32,000 nucleotides of DNA from Corynebacterium amycolatum (GTDB lineage: Bacteria > Actinomycetota > Actinomycetes > Mycobacteriales > Mycobacteriaceae): the NCBI RefSeq assembly GCF_049243625.1, contig NZ_CP046975.1; one strand, given 5' to 3'. A model generated the notes under the pieces. It was not told where the DNA came from and did no database searches. It saw only the letters and a program-made list of their open reading frames with translations. Of this stretch, positions 4,900 to 19,421 are shown piece by piece; position 1 is the first letter of the stretch, and each line of letters opens with the position of its first letter. Position numbers and translations under genes: made by a program.

Positions 4900-6674
4900 C
4901 GGTTCCCCGCCTTTTCATCGTCTGATTCAATGCCCCGCGGGGCGGATGGTTCGTCGTCGAGCGCGAACGCGCGCCACAAATCCCGGTAGCGGCCACCGCG
5001 CGCAAGCAACTCGTCGTGGGTACCCGCCTCCGCGACCGCTCCCCCATCGAGAACGAGGATGCGGTCGGCGTTGCGGATCGTGCTCAACCTGTGCGCGATC
5101 ACAATCACCGTCCGCGAACGGGCCAAACGCTCGATTGCGGACTGGATGAGGGCCTCGGAAGCCGGATCCGCGTAAGCGGTTGCCTCGTCGAAGATGAGCA
5201 CCGGCGCGTCCGTGACGATCGACCTCGCGATGGCCACGCGCTGCGCCTCGCCACCGGAAAAGGTCACGTCGACGTTGACCACCGAATCCAGGCGCTTCGG
5301 CAGCGCCTCGATGATCGCATCGAGGTTCGCGAGCTTCGCGGCCGCCATGATGTCGCCGTCGGTGGCGTCTCTCTTGGCCAGCCGGATGTTCTCCCGCAAC
5401 GGCAGCGTGAGCAACTGCGGATCTTGGAACACCACCGACACCGAGCGGTGCACGTCGCGCACGGCGATGTCGCGGAGATCGACGCCGCCCAGCAGCACCG
5501 AGCCTTCGACGGGGTCGTGGAAACGCGCCAACAACCGGGCGACGGTGGACTTTCCGGAACCGGAGGACCCCACCAACGCCGTGAGGGTCCCCGGTTCGAA
5601 CGTCGCGGACATCCCATCGAGGACCCGCGGCCCATCCCCGTAGGAGAAGACCAGGTTCCGGACCTCGAGCGCGCCCCCGCGCACGGGCACCGGATCGGCG
5701 GGCTCGGCGATCGGCGGCGTGCCCAGCACCTCCGCGATGGATTTCAGGGCCGCGATCCCCGCGATGATGGGTTCGGAGTTCATGGCCACCCGCACGATCG
5801 CCGCGGAGAATCCAAGGCCGAGAACCAGCCCGGCGACGAGGCCCTCCGGTGTGCCGCCCGCGGCGTCCCTCAGAGCGAGGCCGGCGCCGCACACCACTGC
5901 GAGGACCGTGATCGGAGACGTCACCACGTCGATGAGCCCAAGATAGACGTTCGACTGCCGAGACCAGGCGGACCACGCGCGGACGAACGACGACGCCGCG
6001 GCATCGTAGCGGCCCGAGCCCTGGTTGGCGCGTCCGAAGGACTTCATCACCGGGATGCCGCGCACCAACTCGATGACCGCGGCCGTCACTCCTTCGGAGG
6101 CTCGCTCGTAGTCGCGCTGAAGGCCGGCGCCACGCGACATCATTACGCCCATCAGGGCGAAGGTGACCAGCACCGGGACGACCGCCACCGCCGCAATCCG
6201 CCAATCCACCGCGACGAGCGCGATGAGGGAAAGCAGGGGAACCAGCACCGCCACCACGGTCTCACCGACGGTGTGGCCCATGAGCTGGTGGACAGCCGCG
6301 ACGTCCTTCTCAACCGACCCGATGATTCCCGACGAGCGCCGGGCGTCCAGCCAGCCCAGCGGCAACTTCCGGATTTGGGCGACCAGCCGGCGCCGGAGGT
6401 GGAGCTGCAGGTCGTTATCCGCCCGGTGCGAGAGCATGCCGGCGGCGCCGTCCGCGGCCATGCGCACCGTTGCGGCGACGACGATGACAGCCACGGCCAA
6501 CCACGTCCGATGCTCCGGGGCCTCCGGGTACGTCATCGCGATGTCGATGATGCCGACCAGCGAAGCAACGGTAGCCACCGACGACAGGACGGATAACGCG
6601 ACCACCGCACGCATCCGAGTCCGGATCGGGGCGAGCAGCGACCACGGGCCTACGGTCCCGTCCACGGCGCTCAC
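4896..6674 (-). CDS. ABC transporter, fused permease/ATP-binding protein (type-I exporter fold; YbtP/IrtA-like partner, no SIP/FAD domain)
   Basis: The start is trimmed to GTG 6674, which forms a GTGA overlap with the methyltransferase stop. The TMD half is followed by Walker A GSSGSGKST, signature FSGGEAQR and Walker B VLIFDEATA. The ORF-track N-terminal extension (to 6962) is Arg-rich and overlaps the upstream gene. Confidence 0.85.
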   Translation of the reverse strand: MSAVDGTVGPWSLLAPIRTRMRAVVALSVLSSVATVASLVGIIDIAMTYPEAPEHRTWLAVAVIVVAATVRMAADGAAGMLSHRADNDLQLHLRRRLVAQIRKLPLGWLDARRSSGIIGSVEKDVAAVHQLMGHTVGETVVAVLVPLLSLIALVAVDWRIAAVAVVPVLVTFALMGVMMSRGAGLQRDYERASEGVTAAVIELVRGIPVMKSFGRANQGSGRYDAAASSFVRAWSAWSRQSNVYLGLIDVVTSPITVLAVVCGAGLALRDAAGGTPEGLVAGLVLGLGFSAAIVRVAMNSEPIIAGIAALKSIAEVLGTPPIAEPADPVPVRGGALEVRNLVFSYGDGPRVLDGMSATFEPGTLTALVGSSGSGKSTVARLLARFHDPVEGSVLLGGVDLRDIAVRDVHRSVSVVFQDPQLLTLPLRENIRLAKRDATDGDIMAAAKLANLDAIIEALPKRLDSVVNVDVTFSGGEAQRVAIARSIVTDAPVLIFDEATAYADPASEALIQSAIERLARSRTVIVIAHRLSTIRNADRILVLDGGAVAEAGTHDELLARGGRYRDLWRAFALDDEPSAPRGIESDDEKAGNR

Positions 6675-7465
6675 TTGCCCGCCTCCCCGATCGCGCTTTT
6701 CTTCGTGAGAGTGCAGAAGTACACCATGCCGGCGTGTGAGGCTCCGCCCAGCTTCAGCCCGTTGGCTTCGGCGAGGTCCTCGAGCTCGCTGCCCCGGAAC
6801 ACCCGGTGGCCCATCTTCGCCATGACGGCCATGTCGACCCGCTCGTTCACGTCGGGATCCTCGGCGAACGTCTGCACGTAAGCGATGCCGCCGTCGGCGA
6901 GCAGCCCGGCGACCCTGCCGAGCGCGGCACCCGCATCCTTCATTTGGTGGAGCGCGCCGCACACCCAGATTTCATCGGTCCTGCCGGGCTCTCCCGCGAG
7001 CGGCGCAAGGACGTCGGCGACGTGGAATTCCGTCCGGGCCCCGAGCCCTTCGACGGCGGCGCGTTCGCGGGCGATGCGAATCGCATTGGGCGACAGGTCG
7101 TAGCCGACGATGTTCGCCCTGCGATAGCGAGGCTCGGCGGCGAGCATGCGGGCGAGCCACCCGGTTCCGCAACCGAGGTCGAGAACCCGGGCCGGTGCAT
7201 CCGGCCCGGGATCCAGCGCACGGAGCTTCCGATACACGGCGGCGGCGTCCATCGGTTCACGCGCATAGCGGCTGAGGAACCTCGGCTGGACCTTGTCCTC
7301 GTAGGCCGCGAGGAGTCTGCGGTTGTTCTGGACGATCTGGGCAATCGACTTCATCTGGTTCTGTCTCCGGGGTGTGTGGGCCGCGTCCACGCGGCGGTTT
7401 CGGGTTAGGTGCTCGGGTTCGCGGGCCATCGTCGGCGGCGATGCCCCCGTGGACGTGCCCGTCAT
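6671..7465 (-). CDS. Class I SAM-dependent methyltransferase (stand-alone)
   Basis: Motif I is VLDLGCGTGWLARML, the post-I motif is IVGYDLSPNAI, and later residues are DEIWVCGALHQM. The start at 7465 forms an ATGA overlap with the upstream permease stop. An alternative start is ATG 7354 (MKSIAQ..., GGAG 10 nt upstream). Confidence 0.8.
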   Translation of the reverse strand: MTGTSTGASPPTMAREPEHLTRNRRVDAAHTPRRQNQMKSIAQIVQNNRRLLAAYEDKVQPRFLSRYAREPMDAAAVYRKLRALDPGPDAPARVLDLGCGTGWLARMLAAEPRYRRANIVGYDLSPNAIRIARERAAVEGLGARTEFHVADVLAPLAGEPGRTDEIWVCGALHQMKDAGAALGRVAGLLADGGIAYVQTFAEDPDVNERVDMAVMAKMGHRVFRGSELEDLAEANGLKLGGASHAGMVYFCTLTKKSAIGEAGK

Positions 7466-8948: not shown

Positions 8949-9964
8949 CGCGCCGCACCCCCTGCGTTCATCGATATGAATACCTCGTTGAGGGTGGGCG
9001 GCGACACGCTCAGCGAATCCGGCAACGCTTCCGAGGCCTCCATCGCCTGCGCCACCGCCTCGAGGACCCGCGGTCCGGGGTCGACGTCGAGGGACACCGA
9101 CTTCCCCGCGACGCGGGCGCCGTCCAGGCACGTTCCTCCGAGGCAGCGGGCGAACGCCTCCGCCTCGGCGGTGGTGGCAAAGGACACGCGGAGCACGTGC
9201 GACCCGAAGTCGCGGCGCAATTCCTCCGGCGTTCCGCTGGCGACGATGCGGCGATCCTTGAGCAGATGGACGTGGTCGGCCAGCGCCTCCGCCTCTTCCA
9301 GGTACTGGGTGGTCAGCACCAGGGTCATTCCGTCGTCTCGCAGCTGCCGGATGAAGCCCCACAGCTCTTCGCGGCTGACCGGATCCAGCCCCGTCGTGGG
9401 TTCGTCGAGGAACAGCAGCCTGGGCACGACGCACAGCGACGCGGCGATGTCGAGGCGGCGCCGCATGCCACCCGAATAGGCCGACGCCAGCGTCGAGGCA
9501 CTGTCTGCGAGCGAGAATTGCGCGAGCAGTTCCGTCGCGCGGGCGGCCGCGGCGGCGCGGTCGAGTCCGCGCAGCCGCCCGAAGAACTCCAGGTTCTCCC
9601 GGCCGGTGAGGTTCTCGTCGATCGCCGCGAATTGGCCGGTGGTGGCAATGTCAGCGCGCACGCCCGCCGGGTTCTCTTTCACATCGCGCGAGAAGATGCT
9701 CACCTCGCCGGAGTCGGCGGTGATGAGCGTCGACAGGATTCGGATGAGGGTGGTCTTGCCTGCGCCGTTGTGACCGAGGAACGACACGATCGCCCCGGCG
9801 GGCACGGTGAAACTCACGCCGTCGAGCACATGCTTGCGCATCCGGGCACCGCGCTTTCCCTTGCGCCCGCCTTCGGGCGGGGTGCCCGCTTTGCCCGCAA
9901 TCGGGTAGCTCTTCGTGAGGTCGCGTACGACGATCGCCGCACCTCGTTCAGCTTGATCCGTCAT
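8945..9964 (-). CDS. ABC transporter ATP-binding protein (DrrA / ABC-2 subfamily)
   Basis: The 339-aa ORF has Walker A GHNGAGKTT, signature YSGGMRRRL, Walker B LLFLDEPTTGLD and H-loop LTTQYLEE, plus a C-terminal regulatory-type extension. There is an ATGA overlap with the upstream gene (9961-9964). Confidence 0.9.
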   Translation of the reverse strand: MTDQAERGAAIVVRDLTKSYPIAGKAGTPPEGGRKGKRGARMRKHVLDGVSFTVPAGAIVSFLGHNGAGKTTLIRILSTLITADSGEVSIFSRDVKENPAGVRADIATTGQFAAIDENLTGRENLEFFGRLRGLDRAAAAARATELLAQFSLADSASTLASAYSGGMRRRLDIAASLCVVPRLLFLDEPTTGLDPVSREELWGFIRQLRDDGMTLVLTTQYLEEAEALADHVHLLKDRRIVASGTPEELRRDFGSHVLRVSFATTAEAEAFARCLGGTCLDGARVAGKSVSLDVDPGPRVLEAVAQAMEASEALPDSLSVSPPTLNEVFISMNAGGAAR

Positions 9965-11139
9965 CGTTTCCCCTTTTCTTTGGTATCGCAGTGGGCCGCT
10001 GTCGGCAGCGGCCCCGTGGTCGGGTTGTCATGCGGCACCTCGATATGGATGCCCGCATCGCGGGCGAAGGCGAGGACCGGTTCGAGGAGCCGGGGGTGGC
10101 CGACGAGATCCCGGCACCCCGGCGCGACCGGCTTCCCCGCGACCGCCACAACGGTGGCGGCAGCAATCGCCGCGGTCATTTTGTAGGAACCCGGGCCGGT
10201 CGCCCGGACGACGGTCGTCTCGGCCGCCGGGCCCGCATCGCCCGCGCCGGCGGACGACAGTGCGACGACCAGCTCGGCGGGTTGCGGAGTGCCCTTCGCC
10301 CGCGCCTTCCGCGATGTCACGGCCGCCCCGAGACGGGCGAGCAGACCGGAGACAACGGGCATCGAGTACAGTCTCGACGTGCGGATTTTCTCCACCGACT
10401 CATCGGGGAGGGCATCGAAGGCGACGTGGTAGGAATATCCACGGATCGAGGGGCACACCTCGCGTACGACGTCGATGTCCGGGCATTCGTAGCTGATTCC
10501 GCTTTGCGACGACACCGGGTTGCGCCGCACCTCGACGATGGTGCCGCCGAGCATCGTGCGGTATCCGCCGCGGATAGTCCGGAACATTGACTCGACCGCC
10601 GCGGCCCCGGATTCCTGGTCGGCGCCGATTCGCAGATCGACCCGCACATCGCGGACCTCTTCGGCGCCCGCGGCGCGGGCCCCGAGCACCAACAGGGCCG
10701 TCGACAAGCCCGGGCACAGACCGAACCCGGTGAGCACGGGAACCCCCTCCCGCCGGGCATCCCCGTCGAGGGCCATGATCGCGCGGCGGGCGTCGATCGA
10801 ATCGTTGACGTCGATGTACCCGGTGCCTGAGTCGATGCAAGCACGGGCGAGTGAGTCTGCGTGCACCTCGAACGGGCCGGTGCAGTTGACCACCCAATCG
10901 TGTTTGCGGAAGACCCTGCAGATCTCGTTGTGGCCGGCGGCGATCCTCAGCGGGAAGTGCCGCCCCGGGCCATCGTCTGGCTTCTGCCGGGAAGTGTAGG
11001 CCAGCTCAATCCCGTCGACGACGCCGAGCATCCCCCGGACGAGCCGTCCGGTGACGCCGGTACCTCCGGCCACCAGCACTTTCACGGGTTCGCCCGCGTC
11101 GCGGTCCCGTGCTTCCCCGCCGTTTCGTCGGTCAGTCAT
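9961..11139 (-). CDS. Saccharopine-dehydrogenase-like NAD(P)-binding oxidoreductase (candidate tailoring reductase)
   Basis: The 392-aa ORF has an N-terminal Rossmann motif VKVLVAGGTGVTGRLV. The layout NCTGPF...GTGYIDVND...VPVLTGFGLCPGLS resembles the saccharopine dehydrogenase NADP-binding family. Its ATG at 11139 overlaps the NRPS stop by 8 nt. Confidence 0.7.
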   Translation of the reverse strand: MTDRRNGGEARDRDAGEPVKVLVAGGTGVTGRLVRGMLGVVDGIELAYTSRQKPDDGPGRHFPLRIAAGHNEICRVFRKHDWVVNCTGPFEVHADSLARACIDSGTGYIDVNDSIDARRAIMALDGDARREGVPVLTGFGLCPGLSTALLVLGARAAGAEEVRDVRVDLRIGADQESGAAAVESMFRTIRGGYRTMLGGTIVEVRRNPVSSQSGISYECPDIDVVREVCPSIRGYSYHVAFDALPDESVEKIRTSRLYSMPVVSGLLARLGAAVTSRKARAKGTPQPAELVVALSSAGAGDAGPAAETTVVRATGPGSYKMTAAIAAATVVAVAGKPVAPGCRDLVGHPRLLEPVLAFARDAGIHIEVPHDNPTTGPLPTAAHCDTKEKGKR

Positions 11140-14100
11140 TTTCCATCTCGTTTCCCCGGTCCCGCGACCGGTCGATTCCTTCGGACGACGGGTCCGCTGC
11201 CCTGTCGTCCGTTTCCGGCGCTCGGCGCCGGCGTTCGATGTACTCCCCGATGAGGGCCCCGGTCAGCGCGGCATCCTCTCCGAGGACGAACGAATAGTGG
11301 TTTCCCGCGACGCTGGCGACGCAGAGGTCATCGACGAGGTGGTCCCGCCACTGGTCGTGGTTGTGAGCCTCGCCGTCATCGGGGAGAACGAACAGCGCCT
11401 CCCTCACCCGACCCTCGGGCCGGTACCGGGTGCGGGCATCGATGAGCGAGCGCAGCGAGTTGAACTCCGTCGCCGTCACCCGGTCGCCGGAAAGCCCAAG
11501 GTCCTCCAGGAGCGTCGGTGCGACTGCTGCGGCCAGGGCACGCAGACGGGCCCCCCGTTCCTCGTCGGTCTCATCGACCCCGCCGAACTCCGCCCAGAGG
11601 CGGGCAACCGGCGTTCCGTGCGGGAGATCGGCGATCGAGGGCACCACCCGGGACAGCAGCCCCTTTTCGGATTCCGCGCCGAAATCCCCGACGTCGACCG
11701 CGATCCCCGGAGCCAGGCTGTCGAGAAACACCAGCGCGGGATCAAGATCGGCCAAACGGAGCACCATCTCGGCCGCGATGGTGCCGCCGAGGCTCCATCC
11801 GACGATCGCCGGGGCGGCACCGTCGACGAGCACCTCGCGGACCCGGCCCGAGTAGTGGGCCGCGATGTCGCCGATGCCGATGGCGTGGGGGAATGGTCTC
11901 TCGAACTCCGCGAAGCCGACGCCCCACACCTGCCCGCCACCGGGGATCGCGAGGGCCAGGTCTCGGTAGATGTCGACGGTGCCGAATCCGCCGTGGACGA
12001 GGAAGATCGGGTGCGCCTCATCGCCGCTGCGCAATAGGACCAGCGAACGGTCCGCGGCCGACGCGCCGGGATCATCCGCGTCCCGCCGGTCGGTCGGCGT
12101 GGCCGTCGACTGGCCGACGAGCTCGGCCACGCCACGTGGCGTCGGCTTGGCCAGCGCTTCCGCGAGCGGCACCGATGCCCCGGTGATGTCCTGGATCCGC
12201 TGCATCAGATTCACGAATCCCAGGGAGTCGTAGCCGAGGAGGAACAGGTCGTCGTCCGCGCCGGCTTCGGCGCCGCCTAGGTCGGCCCGGACCATCCCGG
12301 TGATGACCGTCAGGTATTCGCGAACTCGGCCCATCAGGTCCCCGGATGCGATCCTCGAGATCGCGCCCGACCTGTCGCGCTCCGCCGATGACGCGCCCGC
12401 GACGCCGTCGCCGATCGCCCCACCGCTGGAAGAAGTGCCCCCGACCGCCAGACGCAGGCGCCGAACCTGGCCGACGCTCAGCGGCGCCGCTTCGGGGCAG
12501 CCCCCGGCGAAGCCCGACACCGACCTGATGTAGTGGTCGAAGATGTCCTCCACCAGTTCCGGTTCCAGGATCTGCTCGACGAAATCCCAGGCGACGTTGA
12601 TACGCCCGCCAACTTCCATCACTTGGTTGTCCAACAGCACCTGCGGGGTCTGGGAGATGGCGTAATCGACGTCACCCAGGACGTGGGCGCCCCTGCCCGA
12701 GCCATCGCCTGCCGCGGAACCCTCGCCGAACAGCAACGAGGTGTACACGAACGGCGCGATGGCCTGTCCGACGGGCAGACCCCGGTGGCGCGCGATGGCG
12801 CCGAGCAACGACACCCCGGAGTACCCGGCCGCCATGTGCCCGAGCAGCCGGTCGCGCAGTTCCGCCGTCCACCAACGGAGGTCATAGTCGGCGGCCGCTT
12901 TCACCGGCATCAGAATGACGCCGGTGAAATCACCGAAGACGCCGGCGAAGTCGGCGATTTCGGGATCACGGTTGTACGTGGTGATGTTGATGCCGACCGA
13001 ATCCCCCCTCGACCACAGCGACAGGCTCGTCGCATAGCAGGCGAGAAGCAGTGCGGACACGCTGCCGTCGGCGGCGCTGGCCCGTTCCCGCAACAGTGCG
13101 GTTTCCTCAGCGGTGAACGTGTGCGACAGGCGACGCATCCGCGGCACATCCACGTCCACGGCCGCACCGATTGATGGAAGGGTGTTGCCGGGCGGGAAGT
13201 CCTCGACCACTGTCCGAGTCAACGTCTCATCGCCACGCCCGACCGCCGAAGCCTCCCGGCGCTTCATCTCCAAGACGTACGTGCGGTAGTCGCCGGTGAC
13301 GGGCGGAAGCTCCGTTCCCCGGTACAGCTTGTCCAGGTCGTCGATGAAAATCCGTTGGCTCGCCCCGTCTCCGATGATCATGTCCACGCTGAAGAACAGG
13401 CGGTGCCGCCCGTCCGGGAGCGCGAACGCCGACAGATGGAACAAGGGCCAGCTGCCCAAATCGAATACCTGGTGGCTCAACTCATCGCGCTTGCGCCGCA
13501 CCGCCTCGACCACGGTCGCCTCATCGGCGGCCCGGTAGTCGGCGACGGCAATGCGGTAGCGCGGAACCTCCGGCAGGATCCGCTGCGTGGCTTGTGCGGT
13601 GAACACGACGCGCAGCATCGGATGCCTGCGGATGAGGTTGTCGAGGGCGTCCTCCAGGCGGTCGATGTCGGTACCGGGTTCGGTGACGGATTCGATGTAG
13701 TAGTGCTCGGTGACGCCGCCCAGCTCGAACCCGGAGTTCCGGCCGACGTAGTAGGCCTTCTGCATGTCGGTCAGGGGGAACGGCGCGTGGGGGTCGTCCC
13801 CGAATTGTTCCACCGGATCCTTCCCGTGGGCACTCGCGGAGGATTCTCGGACGCCTCCTGCGACTGAACCGGCACCGCCGGCACAATCGAGGGAAGACAC
13901 TGCCTCGGCGACGGCTTCAGACTCGGCACCGGACTCCCGCATGGCCTCCGAGACAAGGCCGGCGATGTGCGCGATGGTCGGGTCGGCGATGACGTCGCGG
14001 AAACGGAGCCGGACGCCCGTCTTCTGCCGGATCGCGCGCATCATAACCTGGAATTGCAGGGAATCGCCGCCGCGGCGGAAGAAGGACTCTCCCGCGCCGC

Positions 14101-17100
14101 ACGCCGGATCCGCCGCACTCGTCGACGGGGCTTCCCCGAGGATCTCGTCGAAGACTCCGGACACCAACTCGATCGCCCCGGGGACGGCGACGGAACCATC
14201 CGCGCCCGCGGCTCCGGCCTCCGCCCCGGCGACCTCGCCATCGGCCGTTGCCCCGCCGCCCGCGGCGCCGACGTGCCTACGAATTTCCTCCTGATCCAGT
14301 TTCCCGTTGACGGTGACGGGCAGGTGCGCCACGGGCAGCAGGACCGTCGGTACCATGTACGCTGGCAAGCAGCGGGCGAGCTCGGCCCGGACGACATCCC
14401 GCGAGCCGGTCATGTCGTCCGCCGGAACGTAAAGGCACGCCAGGAGTCCCCGACCGCCCGATTCGACGACCGCCGCCATCGACGCGGTCACCAGGCCGGA
14501 CCGCTCGAGGACCGATTCGATTTCTCCGAGTTCGACGCGGAAGCCCGCGATTTTCACCTGACGATCGCGGCGGCCGAGAAATTCCACGAAACCCTCCGCG
14601 TTGAAGATGCCCACGTCTCCGGTCCGGTAGCAGCGCCCGATGCCTGGGACATCCACGAAGGCGGCAGCGGTCCGCTCTGGATCGGCCGCATACCCCTGCG
14701 CGACGCCGAGACCGCTGATGTGGATTTCCCCCGGCACGCCGACGGGGCAATGCACCCCGTCGGGCGCGAGCACGTGAATGCCCTGGTTCGCCAGCGGGTA
14801 CCCGTAGGGAATGCGGTTTTCCAGGCTGTCGCGTTGCAGCGGGCAGTAGATGGACCAAATGCTTCCTTCGGTCGCACCGCCGAGGCTATTGATCGACGCG
14901 TTCGGGAACATGTCCATGGCGCGCGCCGGAAGCCCCGCTGCGATGCGATCGCCGCTAAGCAATACGGTGCGCACATCCGGGAACACGTCGTCGTCCGACG
15001 CCCGGACCAGGGCGAGCTCCAAAAGGGCGGGCGCGGAGTTCCACAGCGTGACCCGCTCTTCCCGCAAGACGTCGAGGATTTCATCGGCGTCGCGCTCGTC
15101 TCCGACCATCGTCACCGTCGCGCCTGCCGCAAACGCCCCGAACACGTCGTAGACCGACAGGTCGAATCCCAGCGACGACAATCCGATGATGCAATCGGCG
15201 GAGGTGACCCCATACCGCCGGTTCACGTCGAGGATGGTGTTGATGCAGTTGCGGTGACTGATCCGCACACCCTTTGGCCGGCCCGTCGTCCCCGAGGTGA
15301 AGATGACGTAGGCAAGGTCGTCAGGGGCAGTGCCAAGCGAAGGGTGCGCACCCGCGCTGCCCGCGCGGTCGCAGACTTCCGCGGCTGCGGGCTTGCCGAC
15401 GCCCGCCACTCCGCTTTGGTCCAGTTCATCGATCACGCCGGTGTCCAGAATCGGGCCCGACGCACCTGAGGCTTCCACGACGTATTCCTGTCGCTGGGCC
15501 GGCATGCCCGCGTCGACGGGCACGAATGCGGCTCCCGCACGCAATGCGCCGACCATGTTGACGATGTCGTCGGGATGCTTGGTGTAGCGCACGATCACCG
15601 CGTCCCCCGCCCCGACGCCGGAATCTGAGAGATGGCGGGCGATGCGTCCGGCCCGGGCCCAGACCTCGGCGTAGGTGTACGAGATGCCCCGGGCGGCGAG
15701 GCGCACGGCCGGCGCGTCCGGAGTCGCCGCGTATGCGGCTTCGACAAGCGAAACCAGGGTGTCATCGTGGATCGGGCCCGCAGCGTCGTTGTAGCGGGCG
15801 ACGGCCCCCTCCGTCTCCGCATGACGGATGGGCAGAGCCTCTCCCCCCTCCGCCACCACGTCCAGGGCCTCCGCAACGGCCCCGAACATCGCATCTACCG
15901 CGGGGAAGTAATCGTCGACCACGTCCCACGACAACGTCATCCCGCCCGATGCCGGCATCACTTGGATGTCGAGGCACACCTGCGCGGTTTGCGTGTAGAT
16001 GCGTTCGATGACTGGGCTGCGCCCGCTGCCCCGCTCGCCGCCGAGGTAGCTGGTGAACACCACCGGAGCAGTGGCCTGGGTCTGATTGGCCGCGTCCCGG
16101 AGGAATCGCTGTAGCACCTCCACACCGGAAACGCCGCGGTGGGACAGCCCTTCGCGAATGTCCAGGTCGATCGCCTCCGCCAACCCGTCGATGGTCGCGG
16201 CTCTCCCGGCGTCGACGCCGACGAGCATCGATGAAGTGAAATCTCCCATCACCCTCGTGCCCGCGGCGAGGCCGCTGCGTTCGCTGACAGTCACGTTGAC
16301 CGTCAACGCCGATTCGGGCAGCCACCTGCAGACGACGGCGGCGTTGACGGCCATTACCAGCGACGACAGGGTAACTCCAATGCGGCGGGCCCGTTCGCCG
16401 AGCTTGGCGGTGATCTCCGCGTCGAGCACCGTGCCCAAGCGCCGGGTCGACCAATCGTCGTCACCCCTCACGGCCGCCGGGAACTCCGGGCGCCGCGGCA
16501 GATCTGCGGCCTTCTTCTCCCAATAGGCGAGGTCCTCGGCTCGTTTCCCGTCGCGCCGGCGCGCAGAGATTGCCGCCAGGGCATCCCCATATCTGGAAGC
16601 CGGAGCCGGCGGCTCCCCGGCCAGCAGGGATTCGAGCTCGTCGAAGAACAGGTACACCGAACCCGCATCCATGACGATCATGTTGAAGTAGATGAACATC
16701 CTGCACCCGCCCGCATCTGCGAGCAGCCTCGCGGCGACCATGGGACCGTCCTCGTTCGACGATCGCGCCGCGGTTCGCATGTCCCGACGGATCTCCCCCA
16801 CCGCCGCGTCGACATCGTCGCCGGACCCGACTACCTCGACGGTGGCGAGGCACGCGCCGGTCGGGCTCAAGACCCCGGCATCGACATCGAGCCGATGGAA
16901 CAGCACGTCGTGACGCCCGAAGACCGTCCGCACGGCCTCCTCCACCTGCGGCAACGAATAGTCGTGCCGGGATTCCGCGTAAATGTACGTCGCTTGGCCG
17001 CCAAGCTCGATGTCCTCGTCCGCGCCGAGCAGGTAGGCGGTCTGGATTGGATTGAGCGGGACCGCATCCGCGGGACCGGCCCCATTTTTGCCGGCACAGC

Positions 17101-17470
17101 CGTCATCCGACTCACCCGTCGCTACAGCGGGGTCGGCCCCGGCAGCGGCGCCTGCGGCAGATCCGGCATCAGCGCCACCCCGGGCGGCGTCGATGACGGC
17201 CGCCAAATCAGCGACCGTGACCCCGGGGTCCATCGCCCCGTAATCGATGGTGACCCCGTACTCGTCCTCCAGCGCCAGCAGCATCTGGAGGAAAGTCAGG
17301 GAGTTCGGGATGTGGTCGCGGAGTTTCACGTCCGCCGAATCCAGGTGCACGCCGATGGCGTCGGCGATGGACTCCGACAGCCTTTCGGGGGCGACTCGGG
17401 CCCCGGTGCGGGCTTCTCCCACGGCGGTAGATGCGACGGCCGGCGCGATCGTTTCATTGGTCATCGTCAT
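11132..17470 (-). CDS. Non-ribosomal peptide synthetase, domain order T-Cy-A(Cys)-T-Cy-T-TE (HMWP2/PchEF-like)
   Basis: A single 2112-aa ORF. All NRPS core motifs are readable in the translation (see domain features below). The start ATG at 17470 lies 4 nt after the stop of the acyl-AMP ligase gene. Confidence 0.95.
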   Translation of the reverse strand: MTMTNETIAPAVASTAVGEARTGARVAPERLSESIADAIGVHLDSADVKLRDHIPNSLTFLQMLLALEDEYGVTIDYGAMDPGVTVADLAAVIDAARGGADAGSAAGAAAGADPAVATGESDDGCAGKNGAGPADAVPLNPIQTAYLLGADEDIELGGQATYIYAESRHDYSLPQVEEAVRTVFGRHDVLFHRLDVDAGVLSPTGACLATVEVVGSGDDVDAAVGEIRRDMRTAARSSNEDGPMVAARLLADAGGCRMFIYFNMIVMDAGSVYLFFDELESLLAGEPPAPASRYGDALAAISARRRDGKRAEDLAYWEKKAADLPRRPEFPAAVRGDDDWSTRRLGTVLDAEITAKLGERARRIGVTLSSLVMAVNAAVVCRWLPESALTVNVTVSERSGLAAGTRVMGDFTSSMLVGVDAGRAATIDGLAEAIDLDIREGLSHRGVSGVEVLQRFLRDAANQTQATAPVVFTSYLGGERGSGRSPVIERIYTQTAQVCLDIQVMPASGGMTLSWDVVDDYFPAVDAMFGAVAEALDVVAEGGEALPIRHAETEGAVARYNDAAGPIHDDTLVSLVEAAYAATPDAPAVRLAARGISYTYAEVWARAGRIARHLSDSGVGAGDAVIVRYTKHPDDIVNMVGALRAGAAFVPVDAGMPAQRQEYVVEASGASGPILDTGVIDELDQSGVAGVGKPAAAEVCDRAGSAGAHPSLGTAPDDLAYVIFTSGTTGRPKGVRISHRNCINTILDVNRRYGVTSADCIIGLSSLGFDLSVYDVFGAFAAGATVTMVGDERDADEILDVLREERVTLWNSAPALLELALVRASDDDVFPDVRTVLLSGDRIAAGLPARAMDMFPNASINSLGGATEGSIWSIYCPLQRDSLENRIPYGYPLANQGIHVLAPDGVHCPVGVPGEIHISGLGVAQGYAADPERTAAAFVDVPGIGRCYRTGDVGIFNAEGFVEFLGRRDRQVKIAGFRVELGEIESVLERSGLVTASMAAVVESGGRGLLACLYVPADDMTGSRDVVRAELARCLPAYMVPTVLLPVAHLPVTVNGKLDQEEIRRHVGAAGGGATADGEVAGAEAGAAGADGSVAVPGAIELVSGVFDEILGEAPSTSAADPACGAGESFFRRGGDSLQFQVMMRAIRQKTGVRLRFRDVIADPTIAHIAGLVSEAMRESGAESEAVAEAVSSLDCAGGAGSVAGGVRESSASAHGKDPVEQFGDDPHAPFPLTDMQKAYYVGRNSGFELGGVTEHYYIESVTEPGTDIDRLEDALDNLIRRHPMLRVVFTAQATQRILPEVPRYRIAVADYRAADEATVVEAVRRKRDELSHQVFDLGSWPLFHLSAFALPDGRHRLFFSVDMIIGDGASQRIFIDDLDKLYRGTELPPVTGDYRTYVLEMKRREASAVGRGDETLTRTVVEDFPPGNTLPSIGAAVDVDVPRMRRLSHTFTAEETALLRERASAADGSVSALLLACYATSLSLWSRGDSVGINITTYNRDPEIADFAGVFGDFTGVILMPVKAAADYDLRWWTAELRDRLLGHMAAGYSGVSLLGAIARHRGLPVGQAIAPFVYTSLLFGEGSAAGDGSGRGAHVLGDVDYAISQTPQVLLDNQVMEVGGRINVAWDFVEQILEPELVEDIFDHYIRSVSGFAGGCPEAAPLSVGQVRRLRLAVGGTSSSGGAIGDGVAGASSAERDRSGAISRIASGDLMGRVREYLTVITGMVRADLGGAEAGADDDLFLLGYDSLGFVNLMQRIQDITGASVPLAEALAKPTPRGVAELVGQSTATPTDRRDADDPGASAADRSLVLLRSGDEAHPIFLVHGGFGTVDIYRDLALAIPGGGQVWGVGFAEFERPFPHAIGIGDIAAHYSGRVREVLVDGAAPAIVGWSLGGTIAAEMVLRLADLDPALVFLDSLAPGIAVDVGDFGAESEKGLLSRVVPSIADLPHGTPVARLWAEFGGVDETDEERGARLRALAAAVAPTLLEDLGLSGDRVTATEFNSLRSLIDARTRYRPEGRVREALFVLPDDGEAHNHDQWRDHLVDDLCVASVAGNHYSFVLGEDAALTGALIGEYIERRRRAPETDDRAADPSSEGIDRSRDRGNEMEND
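11246..12049 (-). other. NRPS domain TE: type I thioesterase
   Basis: Spans aa ~1808-2075. Motifs are PIFLVHGGFG, nucleophile elbow GWSLGG (Ser1893), FLDS (candidate Asp1917) and GNHYSF (candidate His2058). Confidence 0.85.
12116..12337 (-). other. NRPS domain T2: peptidyl carrier domain
   Basis: Spans aa ~1712-1785, with motif LFLLGYDSLGFVNLM (Ser1749). Confidence 0.85.
12506..13786 (-). other. NRPS domain Cy2: canonical heterocyclization domain
   Basis: Spans aa ~1229-1655. Motifs are FPLTDMQKAYYVGR, DMIIGD (DxxxxD, aa 1363-1368), VFGDFTG, APFVYTSLL and SQTPQVLLDNQ. Confidence 0.88.
13946..14179 (-). other. NRPS domain T1: peptidyl carrier domain
   Basis: Spans aa ~1098-1175, with motif FFRRGGDSLQFQVMM (Ser1137). 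Confidence 0.85.
14276..15778 (-). other. NRPS domain A: adenylation domain, cysteine-type specificity code
   Basis: Spans aa ~565-1065. Motifs are A3 YVIFTSGTTGRPKG, A4 FDLSVYD, A5 NSLGGATEGSIWS, A7 YRTGD, A8 GRRDRQVKIAGFRVELGEIE and A10 NGKLD. Hand alignment to GrsA-PheA numbering gives the code D-L-Y-N-L-S-L-I-W-K, the classic Cys code. There is no methyltransferase or epimerase insert between A8 and A10. Confidence 0.85.
15806..17062 (-). other. NRPS domain Cy1: heterocyclization-type condensation domain, variant active-site motif
   Basis: Spans aa ~137-555. Motifs are VPLNPIQTAYLLGA (the Cy N-terminal motif lacking the GR), NMIVMD in place of DxxxxD (aa 263-268, nt 16667-16684), VMGDFTSS, APVVFTSYLGG and TQTAQVCLDIQ. 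Confidence 0.8.
17177..17398 (-). other. NRPS domain T0: N-terminal acyl/aryl carrier domain
   Basis: Spans aa ~25-98. The phosphopantetheine site motif is HIPNSLTFLQMLLALEDEYG (Ser57), with N in place of the usual D/G before SL. Boundaries are approximate. Confidence 0.75.
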
Positions 17471-17474
17471 CGCC

Positions 17475-19247
17475 TCAGAGCAGAGCCTCGAGCTTGCGGC
17501 GGAGCTTCTTGCCGTTCGACGCGACGGGCAGCTCGTCGACCCACAGAACCCGGGAGACGGGCACCCCGGCGACGCGCATCAGCTCGGTCGTCGCGGACCG
17601 GGTCACCGCCTGTTCATCAATCGGAGGTTCATCCCCGTCCGATTGCCCGGCACCGGTCGCATCGTCGGCCTTACGATCGGTCGGGGTCCGCCTGGCCAAG
17701 AACACGGCGATCTCCTCTTCGCCCGTGGCTGGGTTGCTCCGGCCGAGAACGGCAACATCGCGGTCAAGCACATTCTCCAGCACGGCTTCCAAATCAGCCG
17801 AATAGTAATTCCGGCCGTTGACGAAGATGATGTCCTTCTTCCGGCCGAGGACGAACAACTCGCCGTCGCGGAGAATGCCCATGTCCCCCGTTGCGAACGC
17901 CCCGTCATCGGTGAGCTCGTGCTCCACGATCCCCTCTGCTGTGATCGCGGCGCGGGTCATCGGAGCGCCGGCGATGTGGATTTCACCGACGGTGCCGTCG
18001 CCGAGGACCCCGCCCCCGTCATCGCGGATGGTCAACGAGATCCCCGGGACGGCCTTGCCCAAGGCGACGAACTCAGCTCCGGACTCGCTCTCGATGTCCT
18101 CGAAACGCTGCCCCGTGGCGATGCCCGTCCGGTCAAGTCGCACCGTGGACAGACCCGAGTAGATGTCCCGGGTCGTAACCAGGAGGCAAGCTTCGGACAT
18201 TCCGTAGGCGGAGGTCAGGGCATCCTCCCGGAGGCCCATGGCGGACATCGCCGCGAGGAACTTCCGGGCCAATGGAGCGTCGATGGGTTCAGAACCGCTC
18301 ATCAGCTTCTGGACGTTGGAGAAGTCGTAACCGTGGTCATCCCCGAGGGGCCGGCGCTCGAGATAGCGCAGGAAATGCTTGAACGCGAAGTTCGGGCACA
18401 CTGTCACCGTCGGCCGGTGCCTGGTCACGGCCTCGAACCACCTCGGGGGATCGGCGACCACCTCGGAAACCGGCAGCAACACCTGGTCGTACCCACGAAA
18501 AAGGGCGTAGACGTGGAAGCCGATCAGCGAAAGGTTGTGGGTCAAAGGTAGCCACGTGAGCATCTTGTTCTCGTACCGGTGCGCGTGGCGTGGGATCGTC
18601 GCGCGCAGACCGTTCAGCACGGACTCGTTGGTTACGATGACGCCTTTTGGCGATCCCGTGGAGCCGGACGAAAACTGGATGAGGGCTTCGCCGGCCGTCC
18701 CACCTCGCACCGGGAACGCGGGGACCGCCCCGGCGCCATCCCCGGAATCCACGTCCCCCGCCTGAGAGAAGTCCGATTCAGCATCACCCGGCATCGCCGC
18801 ACCCGGTTCCGCGGCAGCGTCATTGACGATGGACACGTCGAGCAGCCGGTCCTCGCCCACGACCACGGCGCCGTTTGCGCCGGTGAGCAGCGTGTGACTG
18901 CGTTCGTCGACCAGGATCGGGGCCCCGGGCATCATGTCCGAGAGCGTCCGCACCCTGTCGACGTCAACCGGGCCCGACACCGGCGGCGCAAGCGCCGGAA
19001 CCGCGCCGGCGTAGACGCAGCCCCAGAACGCCCGGATGAGCCCGCGGTTCTCCGAAACCTGGAAGATCACGCGATCGCCGGGGCCGATGCCGGCTTCGGC
19101 CAACCGAGTCGCAGCCGCCACCGCCTCCGCATGGACCCGGCCATACGGGACGAAGACGTCCCGCCGATTCTCGACGAAGGTGATCCCCTTTTTCGTCTCA
19201 TCGGCCTTGTCCCGAAGCACGTCGCTGATGGTCCGGATCGTGTTCAT
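17475..19247 (-). CDS. Stand-alone adenylate-forming enzyme, fatty-acyl-AMP-ligase (FAAL/FadD)-like starter-unit loader
   Basis: The start is trimmed to ATG 19247, which has GAAAGAGG 6-7 nt upstream. Motifs are IQFSSGSTGSPKGV (A3), WLPLTHNLSLIGF, SAYGMSEA (A5), FATGDMG (A7), GRKKDIIFVNGRNYYSADLE (A8, FAAL-type) and SNGKKLRRK (A10). These are not the DhbE/YbtE/PchD aryl-acid ligase motifs. Confidence 0.82.
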   Translation of the reverse strand: MNTIRTISDVLRDKADETKKGITFVENRRDVFVPYGRVHAEAVAAATRLAEAGIGPGDRVIFQVSENRGLIRAFWGCVYAGAVPALAPPVSGPVDVDRVRTLSDMMPGAPILVDERSHTLLTGANGAVVVGEDRLLDVSIVNDAAAEPGAAMPGDAESDFSQAGDVDSGDGAGAVPAFPVRGGTAGEALIQFSSGSTGSPKGVIVTNESVLNGLRATIPRHAHRYENKMLTWLPLTHNLSLIGFHVYALFRGYDQVLLPVSEVVADPPRWFEAVTRHRPTVTVCPNFAFKHFLRYLERRPLGDDHGYDFSNVQKLMSGSEPIDAPLARKFLAAMSAMGLREDALTSAYGMSEACLLVTTRDIYSGLSTVRLDRTGIATGQRFEDIESESGAEFVALGKAVPGISLTIRDDGGGVLGDGTVGEIHIAGAPMTRAAITAEGIVEHELTDDGAFATGDMGILRDGELFVLGRKKDIIFVNGRNYYSADLEAVLENVLDRDVAVLGRSNPATGEEEIAVFLARRTPTDRKADDATGAGQSDGDEPPIDEQAVTRSATTELMRVAGVPVSRVLWVDELPVASNGKKLRRKLEALL

Positions 19248-19421
19248 TGGTACCTCTTTCGGTTGTCGGCGCCATGCTGGTGCCGGGCGGACCGGGCCCG
19301 CATGGCGTGACCCGGAGGATGTGTCTGAAGGGTTGAAAGGGTGAAGCAACTGGGTGGGGCGCGTCTCCGCACAAGCTCGGAAACGCTCGCGGGCCCGGGA
19401 CCCGCCGGTTCCGGGTGCCCG

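What the first reader, a model, noticed from the sequence alone, without database searches (positions are those of the whole stretch)
9961..11139. Saccharopine-dehydrogenase-like oxidoreductase coupled to the NRPS: possible non-orthologous thiazoline reductase
Seen: a 392-aa Rossmann protein (VKVLVAGGTGVTG) overlaps the NRPS stop by 8 nt and the next gene by 4 nt, so it is part of the assembly-line operon. Established: pyochelin and yersiniabactin need a dedicated NADPH thiazolinyl imide reductase (PchG / YbtU-Irp3). That enzyme belongs to a different fold family (Gfo/Idh/MocA-like). Inference: this protein may perform the thiazoline to thiazolidine reduction on the T2-bound intermediate, a functional replacement by an unrelated family. 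Alternatively it may act on the starter unit.
Basis: inference. Interest (0 to 1): 0.6.

Follow-up and report, generated by a model that had tools for sequence, protein, structure and literature searches.

The report
Candidate new-fold thiazoline reductase, Corynebacterium
A skin Corynebacterium carries a pyochelin-like metal-chelator gene cluster that lacks the usual thiazoline reductase and instead always carries an unrelated saccharopine-dehydrogenase-fold enzyme, which is the best (still unproven) candidate for that reduction step.

Summary
ORF 9961-11139 (minus strand, 392 aa) has a GGTGVTG Rossmann motif. It overlaps the NRPS stop by 8 nt and the next gene by 4 nt. Its AlphaFold model (pLDDT 85) matches carboxyspermidine dehydrogenase, L-lysine dehydrogenase and saccharopine reductase (Z 29-34). 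All of these enzymes transfer hydride to or from C=N bonds. It shows no PchG/Irp3 signature.

The neighbouring genes are a FAAL, a T-Cy-A(Cys)-T-Cy-T-TE NRPS and a stand-alone methyltransferase. This is pyochelin logic with only the reductase missing. The complete genome has no PchG/Irp3 homologue. Among 300 Corynebacterium genomes, 23 carry this protein and 9 carry an Irp3-type reductase, with no overlap. Synteny holds down to 36% identity and in one lactobacillus. One metagenomic protein fuses a relative of this enzyme to a homologue of the cluster's methyltransferase.

Caveats: the nearest outgroup sits beside NRPSs that make no thiazoline. The protein is not orthologous to the orphan SDH-like genes of coelibactin-type clusters (SrbE/EqbM). 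There is no biochemical evidence.

Verdict: first reading partly supported, with about 45% for thiazoline reductase. Unchecked first-stage notes of this scan flag similar SDH-like genes beside Cy modules in other genomes.

The parts
9961..11139 (-). Saccharopine-dehydrogenase-fold NAD(P)-binding oxidoreductase ('alpha' NRPS-linked SDH-like family), 392 aa; candidate thiazoline C=N reductase
   Evidence: Translation; Pfam PF03435 sub-threshold; AF2 model pLDDT 85.4; Foldseek and VIA-align matches to CASDH, LysDH and saccharopine reductase; conserved synteny
11047..11085 (-). Rossmann dinucleotide-binding motif VKVLVAGGTGVTG (residues 19-31). GTG 11085 is the alternative start that matches homologue N-termini.
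   Evidence: G25, G26, G28 and G31 are invariant in alignment A1.
10699..10728 (-). Invariant family motif GFGLCPGLST (residues 138-147), the G..PG motif of the SDH superfamily
   Evidence: Alignment A1 invariant columns; aligned to the same motif in BioU
11132..17470 (-). NRPS T-Cy1-A(Cys)-T-Cy2-T-TE, 2112 aa; it makes the presumed bis-thiazoline substrate
   Evidence: Pfam domains; Cy motifs, NMIVMD in Cy1 and DMIIGDGAS in Cy2; specificity code DLYNLSLIWK
12086..12358 (-). Last carrier domain (T3, Ser1749), the carrier that would hold the second thiazoline, equivalent to the PchF PCP
17475..19349 (-). Stand-alone fatty-acyl-AMP-ligase-like starter enzyme
   Evidence: Pfam AMP-binding; NCBIfam PRK09192 and PRK07768 FAAL-type hits
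6671..7465 (-). Stand-alone class I SAM methyltransferase, always co-inherited with the oxidoreductase; candidate thiazolidine N-methyltransferase
   Evidence: Pfam; present in every intact homologous cluster; homologous to the MT domain fused to an alpha SDH-like domain in P0040

Best explanation
The gene encodes an NAD(P)H-dependent C=N reductase of the saccharopine-dehydrogenase fold; sequence features suggest NADPH. I propose that it acts in trans on the assembly line. The FAAL loads an acyl starter on T1. The single Cys-specific A domain loads T2 and T3. Cy1 and Cy2 build an acyl-thiazolinyl-thiazoline. The oxidoreductase then reduces one thiazoline, most likely the C-terminal ring on T3 as in pyochelin, to a thiazolidine. 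The stand-alone methyltransferase then N-methylates the ring nitrogen before the TE releases the product. This would make the enzyme a non-orthologous functional replacement of PchG/Irp3. Shown here: the fold, operon membership, conserved synteny, absence of PchG/Irp3, and the fusion and partner patterns. Inferred: the substrate, which ring is reduced, the order of steps, the cofactor, and action on the carrier-bound intermediate.
For: (1) Fold. Z 33.8 (8deb), 33.7 (8h52, with NADP) and 33.7 (3abi); 29-30 for saccharopine reductase; 26 for homospermidine synthase; 21 for BioU; 19 for amine dehydrogenases. From established knowledge, all of these transfer hydride to or from imine carbons. (2) Pathway bookkeeping. 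FAAL + T-Cy-A(Cys)-T-Cy-T-TE + MT maps one-to-one onto PchD/PchE/PchF(MT). This is the only redox gene in the operon. (3) No TIGR01761 match at E<=1 in the complete 2.47-Mb genome. (4) Among 300 Corynebacterium genomes, 23 have the protein and 9 have an Irp3-type reductase, with zero overlap. (5) The order ligase-NRPS-oxidoreductase-...-MT is kept at 66, 45, 44, 41, 40, 38 and 36% identity, and in Bombilactobacillus. No GFO_IDH_MocA gene is listed in those neighbourhoods. (6) P0040 fuses a homologue of the cluster MT (32% identity, E 7e-21) to an alpha SDH-like domain. Streptomyces coelibactin-type loci carry Irp3-like and MT domains in one ORF. These are parallel reductase-MT fusions. (7) A second SDH-like family ('beta') lies directly beside Irp3-like genes in Streptomyces and Corynebacterium coelibactin-type loci, but beside alpha-family genes elsewhere. 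Alpha and Irp3 are thus alternative partners of beta. (8) There is no acidic residue after beta-2, and Arg51 is invariant. This is a sequence-based hint for NADPH. (9) Natural deletion variants lose FAAL, NRPS and the Rossmann half of this gene together while keeping all transporters. The gene therefore belongs to biosynthesis, not uptake.
Against: The closest outgroup of the family (hhalign E 1.6e-58) lies in Butyricimonas, Desulfovibrio and related loci. Their synthetase is FAAL-T-C-A-T-TE with a DHxxxDG condensation motif, no Cy motifs and a non-Cys code, DMTNLGEVAK. The family is therefore not tied to thiazolines. What those lines share with this one is the FAAL starter and a methyltransferase. 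The methyltransferase could methylate O, S or C instead of N. The product might keep both thiazolines. There is no product structure, no enzyme assay and no genetics for any alpha-family member. Genomes within a genus are related, so the 23-versus-9 exclusivity overstates independence.
Confidence: 0.45

Rival explanations
1. The enzyme reduces, or reductively aminates, a C=N or C=O group elsewhere in the molecule. Candidates are the FAAL-derived starter unit or the released product. This is a function it would share with its relatives in FAAL-primed, thiazoline-free NRPS clusters.
For: The nearest outgroup (A3) sits after FAAL-T-C-A-T-TE synthetases without Cy domains or Cys codes. What these lines share with the window is the FAAL-type starter and MTs, not the heterocycle. 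An alpha-type fusion also follows a Cy-A-T-R line that releases an aldehyde, which is a natural substrate for reductive amination. The SDH superfamily typically condenses an amine with a carbonyl and reduces the imine.
Against: If the starter is a plain fatty acid, the predicted product has no reducible group other than the two thiazoline C=N bonds. No amine-donor or keto-acid-forming gene is present in the operon. This reading does not explain the complementary distribution with Irp3-type reductases.
Confidence: 0.3
2. It is an orthologue of the orphan SDH-like proteins of coelibactin-type clusters (SrbE, EqbM, MchE). It performs their unknown essential function, which is distinct from thiazoline reduction because those clusters also encode Irp3-like reductases.
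For: The literature records PF03435 proteins of unknown function in the equibactin, sorangibactin, mupirochelin and coelibactin clusters (PMC3672683, PMC10127202, PMC10080011).
Against: SDH-like genes found next to Irp3-like genes in coelibactin-type loci (A2) are only distant relatives. hhalign gives E 4.3e-20, against 1.6e-58 for the anaerobe clade and 3e-40 for generic SDH-like proteins. A2-type genes coexist in tandem with alpha-type genes, so the two are paralogous families with separate roles. I could not obtain the SrbE, EqbM or MchE sequences themselves. A2 stands in for them on the basis of gene context.
Confidence: 0.07
3. It serves use of the chelator rather than its synthesis (for example reductive metal release), or it is a housekeeping polyamine or lysine enzyme that merely lies in the island.
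For: The structural neighbours are polyamine and lysine enzymes. The island is rich in transporters.
Against: At least ten species-level genomes keep intact transporter genes but have lost the Rossmann half of this gene together with FAAL and NRPS. The protein is found only inside these NRPS clusters: 23 of 300 genus genomes, and none with a full-length match in a 401-genome phylum sample apart from the window's own genome. There are no equivalog hits to CASDH, LYS9 or BioU.
Confidence: 0.06

Closest known systems
PchG (pyochelin) and Irp3/YbtU (yersiniabactin) thiazolinyl imine reductases
   Same: The proposed reaction and pathway position are the same: a stand-alone NADPH enzyme next to a Cy-containing NRPS whose product needs a thiazolidine that is then N-methylated. 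Both are two-domain Rossmann enzymes.
   Different: It shows no sequence signature of that family: no TIGR01761, PF01408 or PF21390 signal. Its fold neighbours are SDH-family enzymes. In 300 Corynebacterium genomes it never co-occurs with an Irp3-type reductase.
Carboxy(nor)spermidine dehydrogenase, L-lysine 6-dehydrogenase and saccharopine reductase (PF03435 superfamily)
   Same: The whole two-domain fold matches (Z 29-34 over about 330 residues). The Rossmann motif and the G..PG motif are shared. The chemistry is NAD(P)H hydride transfer to imine carbon.
   Different: Sequence identity is only 13-16%. The Pfam score is below the cut-off and there is no equivalog match. The genomic context is an NRPS operon, not polyamine or lysine metabolism. 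Family-specific invariant motifs DWVxNCTGPFE, IDVNDSID, GQxSGAAA and YECPD are present.
Orphan SDH-like proteins of coelibactin-type clusters (SrbE, EqbM, MchE)
   Same: These are PF03435-type proteins embedded in thiazoline-forming NRPS clusters, with unknown function. The srbE/F/G triple deletion abolished sorangibactin A (PMC10127202).
   Different: Those clusters also encode an Irp3-like reductase. The context-defined stand-ins (A2) are a separate family. The window has the alpha family alone, with no beta and no Irp3.
Pyochelin pathway (PchD, PchE, PchF, PchG)
   Same: Starter ligase, two Cy modules using Cys, reduction, N-methylation and TE release all have counterparts.
   Different: The starter ligase is FAAL-like, not a salicylate ligase. 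One protein with a single A domain serves two carriers. The MT is a separate protein. The reductase candidate has a different fold.

Membership tests
Saccharopine dehydrogenase / reductase-like superfamily (PF03435 N-domain plus alpha/beta C-domain) | N-terminal Rossmann fold with GxGxxG | tested here: met
   GGTGVTG at residues 25-31, invariant in A1. The model shows beta-alpha-beta at residues 19-50.
Saccharopine dehydrogenase / reductase-like superfamily (PF03435 N-domain plus alpha/beta C-domain) | Pfam PF03435 score at or above the gathering cut-off | tested here: not met
   21.2 bits against a cut-off of 25.1, E 3.9e-4, covering only residues 75-133. Relatives P0009, P0010 and P0014 carry precomputed PF03435 hits.
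Saccharopine dehydrogenase / reductase-like superfamily (PF03435 N-domain plus alpha/beta C-domain) | Whole two-domain fold superposes on solved members | tested here: met
   VIA-align Z 33.8 (8deb, rmsd 3.0, 339 residues aligned), 33.7 (8h52) and 33.7 (3abi); Foldseek E 6.5e-19.
Saccharopine dehydrogenase / reductase-like superfamily (PF03435 N-domain plus alpha/beta C-domain) | NAD(P)H-dependent oxidoreduction at an imine carbon | not testable with these tools
   Needs an enzyme assay.
PchG / Irp3 (YbtU) thiazolinyl imide reductases (TIGR01761; PF01408 + PF21390) | Match to TIGR01761, or to GFO_IDH_MocA plus Irp3-like_C | tested here: not met
   No such hit for P0001 at E<=0.01 in Pfam or NCBIfam. 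The same models do detect true members in L025 and L053.
PchG / Irp3 (YbtU) thiazolinyl imide reductases (TIGR01761; PF01408 + PF21390) | Gfo/Idh/MocA-type fold | tested here: inconclusive
   The top structural matches are all SDH-family enzymes with Z 26-34. Gfo/Idh/MocA entries appear only at Z about 16 (3bio) or TM 0.35-0.40 (3gfg), which is Rossmann-level similarity. Irp3 entries are not among the rows listed.
PchG / Irp3 (YbtU) thiazolinyl imide reductases (TIGR01761; PF01408 + PF21390) | NADPH-dependent reduction of a carrier-bound thiazoline to a thiazolidine | not testable with these tools
   This is the function proposed by analogy. It needs in vitro reconstitution or genetics.
Coelibactin-type orphan SDH-like proteins (SrbE / EqbM / MchE; 'beta') | Encoded in a cluster that also has an Irp3-like reductase, usually adjacent to it | tested here: not met
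   No Irp3-like gene in the genome or in any of the 23 carrier genomes. Beta genes abut Irp3-like genes in L025 and L051-L056.
Coelibactin-type orphan SDH-like proteins (SrbE / EqbM / MchE; 'beta') | Closest profile similarity is to that family | tested here: not met
   hhalign A1 against A2 gives E 4.3e-20. A1 against A3 gives 1.6e-58 and against A4 gives 3e-40.

The most novel reading that the evidence does not exclude
The alpha-type SDH-like proteins are a second, evolutionarily independent class of trans-acting NRPS azoline/imine reductases. They are interchangeable with PchG/Irp3, both as the partner of the N-methyltransferase and as the partner of the beta SDH-like protein. In skin Corynebacterium they are the sole reductase of a lipo-pyochelin-like metallophore. 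If so, the long-unassigned SDH-like genes of coelibactin-like and gut-anaerobe NRPS clusters would also be imine-reducing tailoring enzymes.
Probability: 0.4. Interest if true: 0.7.

Novelty: new variant of a known kind. Interest (0 to 1): 0.52.

Why it matters
Thiazoline-to-thiazolidine reduction is at present attributed to a single enzyme family (PchG/Irp3), and genome-mining rules predict thiazolidines from that family alone. A second, unrelated reductase class would change product predictions for a set of NRPS clusters in abundant human skin commensals and, possibly, in gut anaerobes. It would give a first functional handle on SDH-like genes that three published studies list as unexplained (equibactin, sorangibactin, mupirochelin). 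It would also add an imine reductase scaffold that works on carrier-tethered heterocycles. The island is mobile and often decays into transporter-only forms. Knowing the true product therefore also matters for understanding metal competition on skin.

Tried and rejected
1. Complex prediction of the oxidoreductase (A1) with NADP and the last carrier domain (A5) returned 'no answer' (score 0.00, controls not run). It is not used as evidence either way.
2. A sequence search of the PDB gave only a faint BioU hit (E 0.37).
3. Irp3 and PchG structures do not appear among the 50 rows shown by Foldseek or VIA-align. A missing row does not prove that the folds differ.
4. The search for related loci on genome contigs used two narrow peptide patterns. 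It returned only Corynebacterium loci, so it could not reach the coelibactin-type proteins.
5. A 401-genome phylum sample gave only generic N-domain hits of about 80 bits, apart from the window's own genome. The sample included five unpublished genomes (G347, G317, G525, G690, G538); no claim here rests on them.
6. The literature search for PchK/enantio-pyochelin gave nothing useful on enzyme family.
7. The bilothiazole paper (PMC11934131) describes a different cluster with no SDH-like gene mentioned.
8. Searches for a described product of the Corynebacterium island found only a genome-mining mention of a horizontally transferred NRPS 'siderophore' family, GCF-50 (PMC10210951). I could not verify that it is this island.
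9. I considered that the C domain of the anaerobe clusters might be a cryptic Cy. I rejected this because the Cy1, Cy6 and Cy7 motifs are absent and the catalytic His is retained.
10. The weak ATC_hydrolase (PF14196) hits in the C-terminal extension of 630-aa fusions are below Pfam's cut-off, so I do not lean on them.
Full report
**Observation.**
The minus-strand ORF 9961-11139 encodes 392 residues, with VKVLVAGGTGVTG at positions 19-31. The junction with the NRPS reads ATGACTGA, an 8-nt overlap of start and stop. The junction with the downstream DrrA-type ATPase gene reads ATGA, a 4-nt overlap. Most homologues start at MKVLV. That position corresponds to an in-frame GTG at 11085, and the first nine residues of the model are disordered. 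The start is therefore slightly uncertain, but the gene's place in the operon is not.

**What the protein is.**
- Pfam gives only a sub-threshold PF03435 hit: 21.2 bits against a cut-off of 25.1.
- NCBIfam and the PDB sequence search give only faint BioU hits.
- An AlphaFold2 model built on ten family members is confident (mean pLDDT 85.4, pTM 0.85).
- The model superposes over about 330 residues on carboxyspermidine dehydrogenase (8deb Z 33.8; 8h52 with NADP Z 33.7) and L-lysine dehydrogenase (3abi Z 33.7).
- Lower matches are saccharopine reductase and dehydrogenase (Z 28-31), homospermidine synthase (Z about 26), BioU (Z about 21) and native amine dehydrogenases (Z about 19).
- From established enzymology, all of these move a hydride between NAD(P)H and an imine carbon.
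- No PchG/Irp3 signature (TIGR01761, PF01408, PF21390) is detectable.
- Sequence features hint at NADPH: no acidic residue follows beta-2, and Arg51 is invariant. This is an inference.

**Surroundings.**
- Upstream lies a FAAL-like ligase, followed by a 2112-aa NRPS with the layout T-Cy1-A-T-Cy2-T-TE.
- Cy2 has the textbook motifs PFPLTDMQKAYYVGR and DMIIGDGAS. Cy1 has NMIVMD, but keeps GDFTS and QVCLDIQ.
- The single A domain reads DLYNLSLIWK, the cyclising-Cys code.
- Downstream lie a DrrA-type ATPase, two ABC-2 permeases, a class I SAM methyltransferase and two ABC half-transporters.
- Mapped onto pyochelin (PchD, PchE, PchF with its embedded MT, and PchG), every function has a counterpart except the reductase. 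This ORF is the only redox gene present.

**Comparative genomics.**
- The protein family is small: 23 hits among 5.8 billion clustered proteins, and 49 representatives at E<1e-30 among 1.84 billion.
- Contigs carrying homologues at 66, 45, 44, 41, 40 and 38% identity all show the order ligase, Cy-A-T-Cy-T-TE NRPS, this gene, then ABC genes and a homologous MT wherever the contig reaches that far. None lists a GFO_IDH_MocA gene.
- The C. kroppenstedtii group (36% identity) and C. canis keep the same set.
- Bombilactobacillus apium has a TE remnant at its contig edge, then this gene, an ABC transporter and a homologous MT.
- The window's own genome is complete (one contig, 2.47 Mb, 100% completeness). 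It has no TIGR01761 match even at E<=1.
- In 300 Corynebacterium genomes, 23 carry the family and 9 carry an Irp3-type reductase, with no genome in both sets. These genomes are related, so this is a pattern and not a statistical test.

**Two SDH-like families.**
Published work lists SDH-like genes of unknown function in the equibactin (EqbM), sorangibactin (SrbE; the srbEFG deletion abolishes the product), mupirochelin (MchE) and coelibactin clusters. In each case an Irp3-like reductase is also present (PMC3672683, PMC10127202, PMC10080011).

I recovered context-defined stand-ins for these proteins. They are SDH-like genes lying directly beside Irp3-like genes in six Streptomyces loci and in one Corynebacterium locus. 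That Corynebacterium locus also has a glyoxalase-like gene and a TubC_N-Cy-A(MT)-T-TE NRPS. I call this family 'beta' (alignment A2).

Beta is only distantly related to the window protein's family, which I call 'alpha':

| Comparison (hhalign) | E-value |
|---|---|
| A1 (alpha) vs A2 (beta) | 4.3e-20 |
| A1 vs A3 (anaerobe clade) | 1.6e-58 |
| A1 vs A4 (generic SDH-like proteins) | 3e-40 |

In the Butyricimonas, Desulfovibrio and related loci, and in a Cy-A-T-R locus, an alpha gene and a beta gene sit in tandem. So beta pairs either with Irp3 or with alpha, and the window has alpha alone. This pattern is what one expects if alpha and Irp3 do equivalent jobs.

**Link to the methyltransferase.**
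The 802-aa metagenomic protein P0040 joins three parts. These are a PEMT domain, a class I MT that is 32% identical to the window MT over 202 residues (E 7e-21), and an alpha SDH-like domain. Streptomyces coelibactin-type loci carry Irp3-like and MT domains in a single ORF. The two fusions are parallel. In pyochelin, N-methylation can only follow reduction; this is established knowledge (Patel and Walsh 2001, cited in PMC3672683).

**Evidence that it is a biosynthetic gene.**
Several species carry decayed islands.
- In C. aurimucosum and two unnamed species, an 8-kb deletion fuses FAAL codons 1-54 in frame to residue 88 of this protein. That removes the NRPS and the Rossmann motif, while all transporter genes and the MT stay intact.
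- Another group of genomes keeps only about the last 200 residues, about 171 of the 344 profile positions.
- One contig lost the FAAL and NRPS residues 1-1899 but still has this gene intact.
The gene is therefore dispensable for uptake and is lost together with synthesis.

**Main caveat.**
The synthetases next to the closest outgroup (A3) are FAAL-T-C-A-T-TE. Their condensation motif is DHxxxDGxS, they have no Cy motifs, and their A-domain code is DMTNLGEVAK. Alpha-family enzymes therefore also work in lines that make no thiazoline. What those lines share with the window is a FAAL-type starter and methyltransferases. A docking attempt with the last carrier domain gave no verdict.

**Verdict.**
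The protein is a divergent SDH-fold oxidoreductase and a fixed biosynthetic member of a lipo-pyochelin-like island of the C. tuberculostearicum group (named relatives). No canonical thiazoline reductase exists anywhere in the genome.

| Reading | Probability |
|---|---|
| Thiazoline-to-thiazolidine reductase feeding the N-methyltransferase | about 45% |
| Another C=N or C=O reduction shared with FAAL-primed lines | about 30% |
| Orthology with SrbE-type proteins, or a non-biosynthetic role | the remainder |

This is a new variant of a known kind of tailoring step. It is testable with one deletion and one mass spectrum.

Unchecked first-stage notes of this scan flag similar SDH-like genes beside Cy modules in four other genomes. 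I treat these as leads only.

Noticed in passing
L014-L016 (about 9612-10915), L013, L024; proteins P0002, P0003, P0013: Decayed 'transporter-only' versions of the island occur in several Corynebacterium species. One deletion joins FAAL codons 1-54 in frame to residue 88 of the oxidoreductase at a shared Gly-Pro. The resulting chimeric ORF (P0002) stands for 226 member sequences. ECF, ABC and MT genes remain intact, which suggests chelator piracy.
   Followed up: partly
L025:11442-12548(-), L053:10735-11907(-), L051, L052, L054-L056: A second SDH-like family ('beta') lies directly next to Irp3-like reductase genes in coelibactin-type clusters of Streptomyces and of another Corynebacterium species. 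The same family sits in tandem with alpha-type genes in L027-L029 and L059.
   Followed up: partly
L027:3816-12204, L028:3807-12207, L029:3457-12314: Butyricimonas faecalis, a Desulfovibrio and a third gut or bioreactor lineage share a cluster. It comprises a FAAL-T-C-A-T-TE NRPS (the TE has Cys in place of Ser in two of the three), two tandem SDH-like genes, LCM/PEMT methyltransferases, and TonB/XusB or FeoAB genes. It looks like an undescribed lipo-amino-acid metallophore pathway.
   Followed up: partly
L053:8675-10738(-); open frames of 650-1096 aa: In many Streptomyces coelibactin-type loci the Irp3-like reductase and a class I methyltransferase are read as one continuous ORF, that is, a reductase-MT fusion.
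   Followed up: no
L059:5873-8970; P0049, P0055, P0061 and other proteins of 614-639 aa: A family of SDH-like proteins of about 630 aa has a C-terminal extension. In two members the extension weakly resembles L-2-amino-thiazoline-4-carboxylate hydrolase (PF14196, below cut-off). One such protein follows a TubC_N-Cy-A-T-R NRPS, a type II TE and a beta SDH-like gene.
   Followed up: partly
window 16667-16684; L003 and L008 NRPS: The Asn-for-Asp change in the Cy1 signature (NMI[VI][MA]DAGS) is conserved in orthologous synthetases at about 46% identity. It is therefore a family trait and not a recent mutation.
   Followed up: partly
L001:14512-17014: The 66%-identical copy of the island is followed by IS110-type and mutator-type transposase genes. 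This fits the mobility of the island and the GC jump in the window (about 0.68 inside against about 0.60 outside).
   Followed up: no
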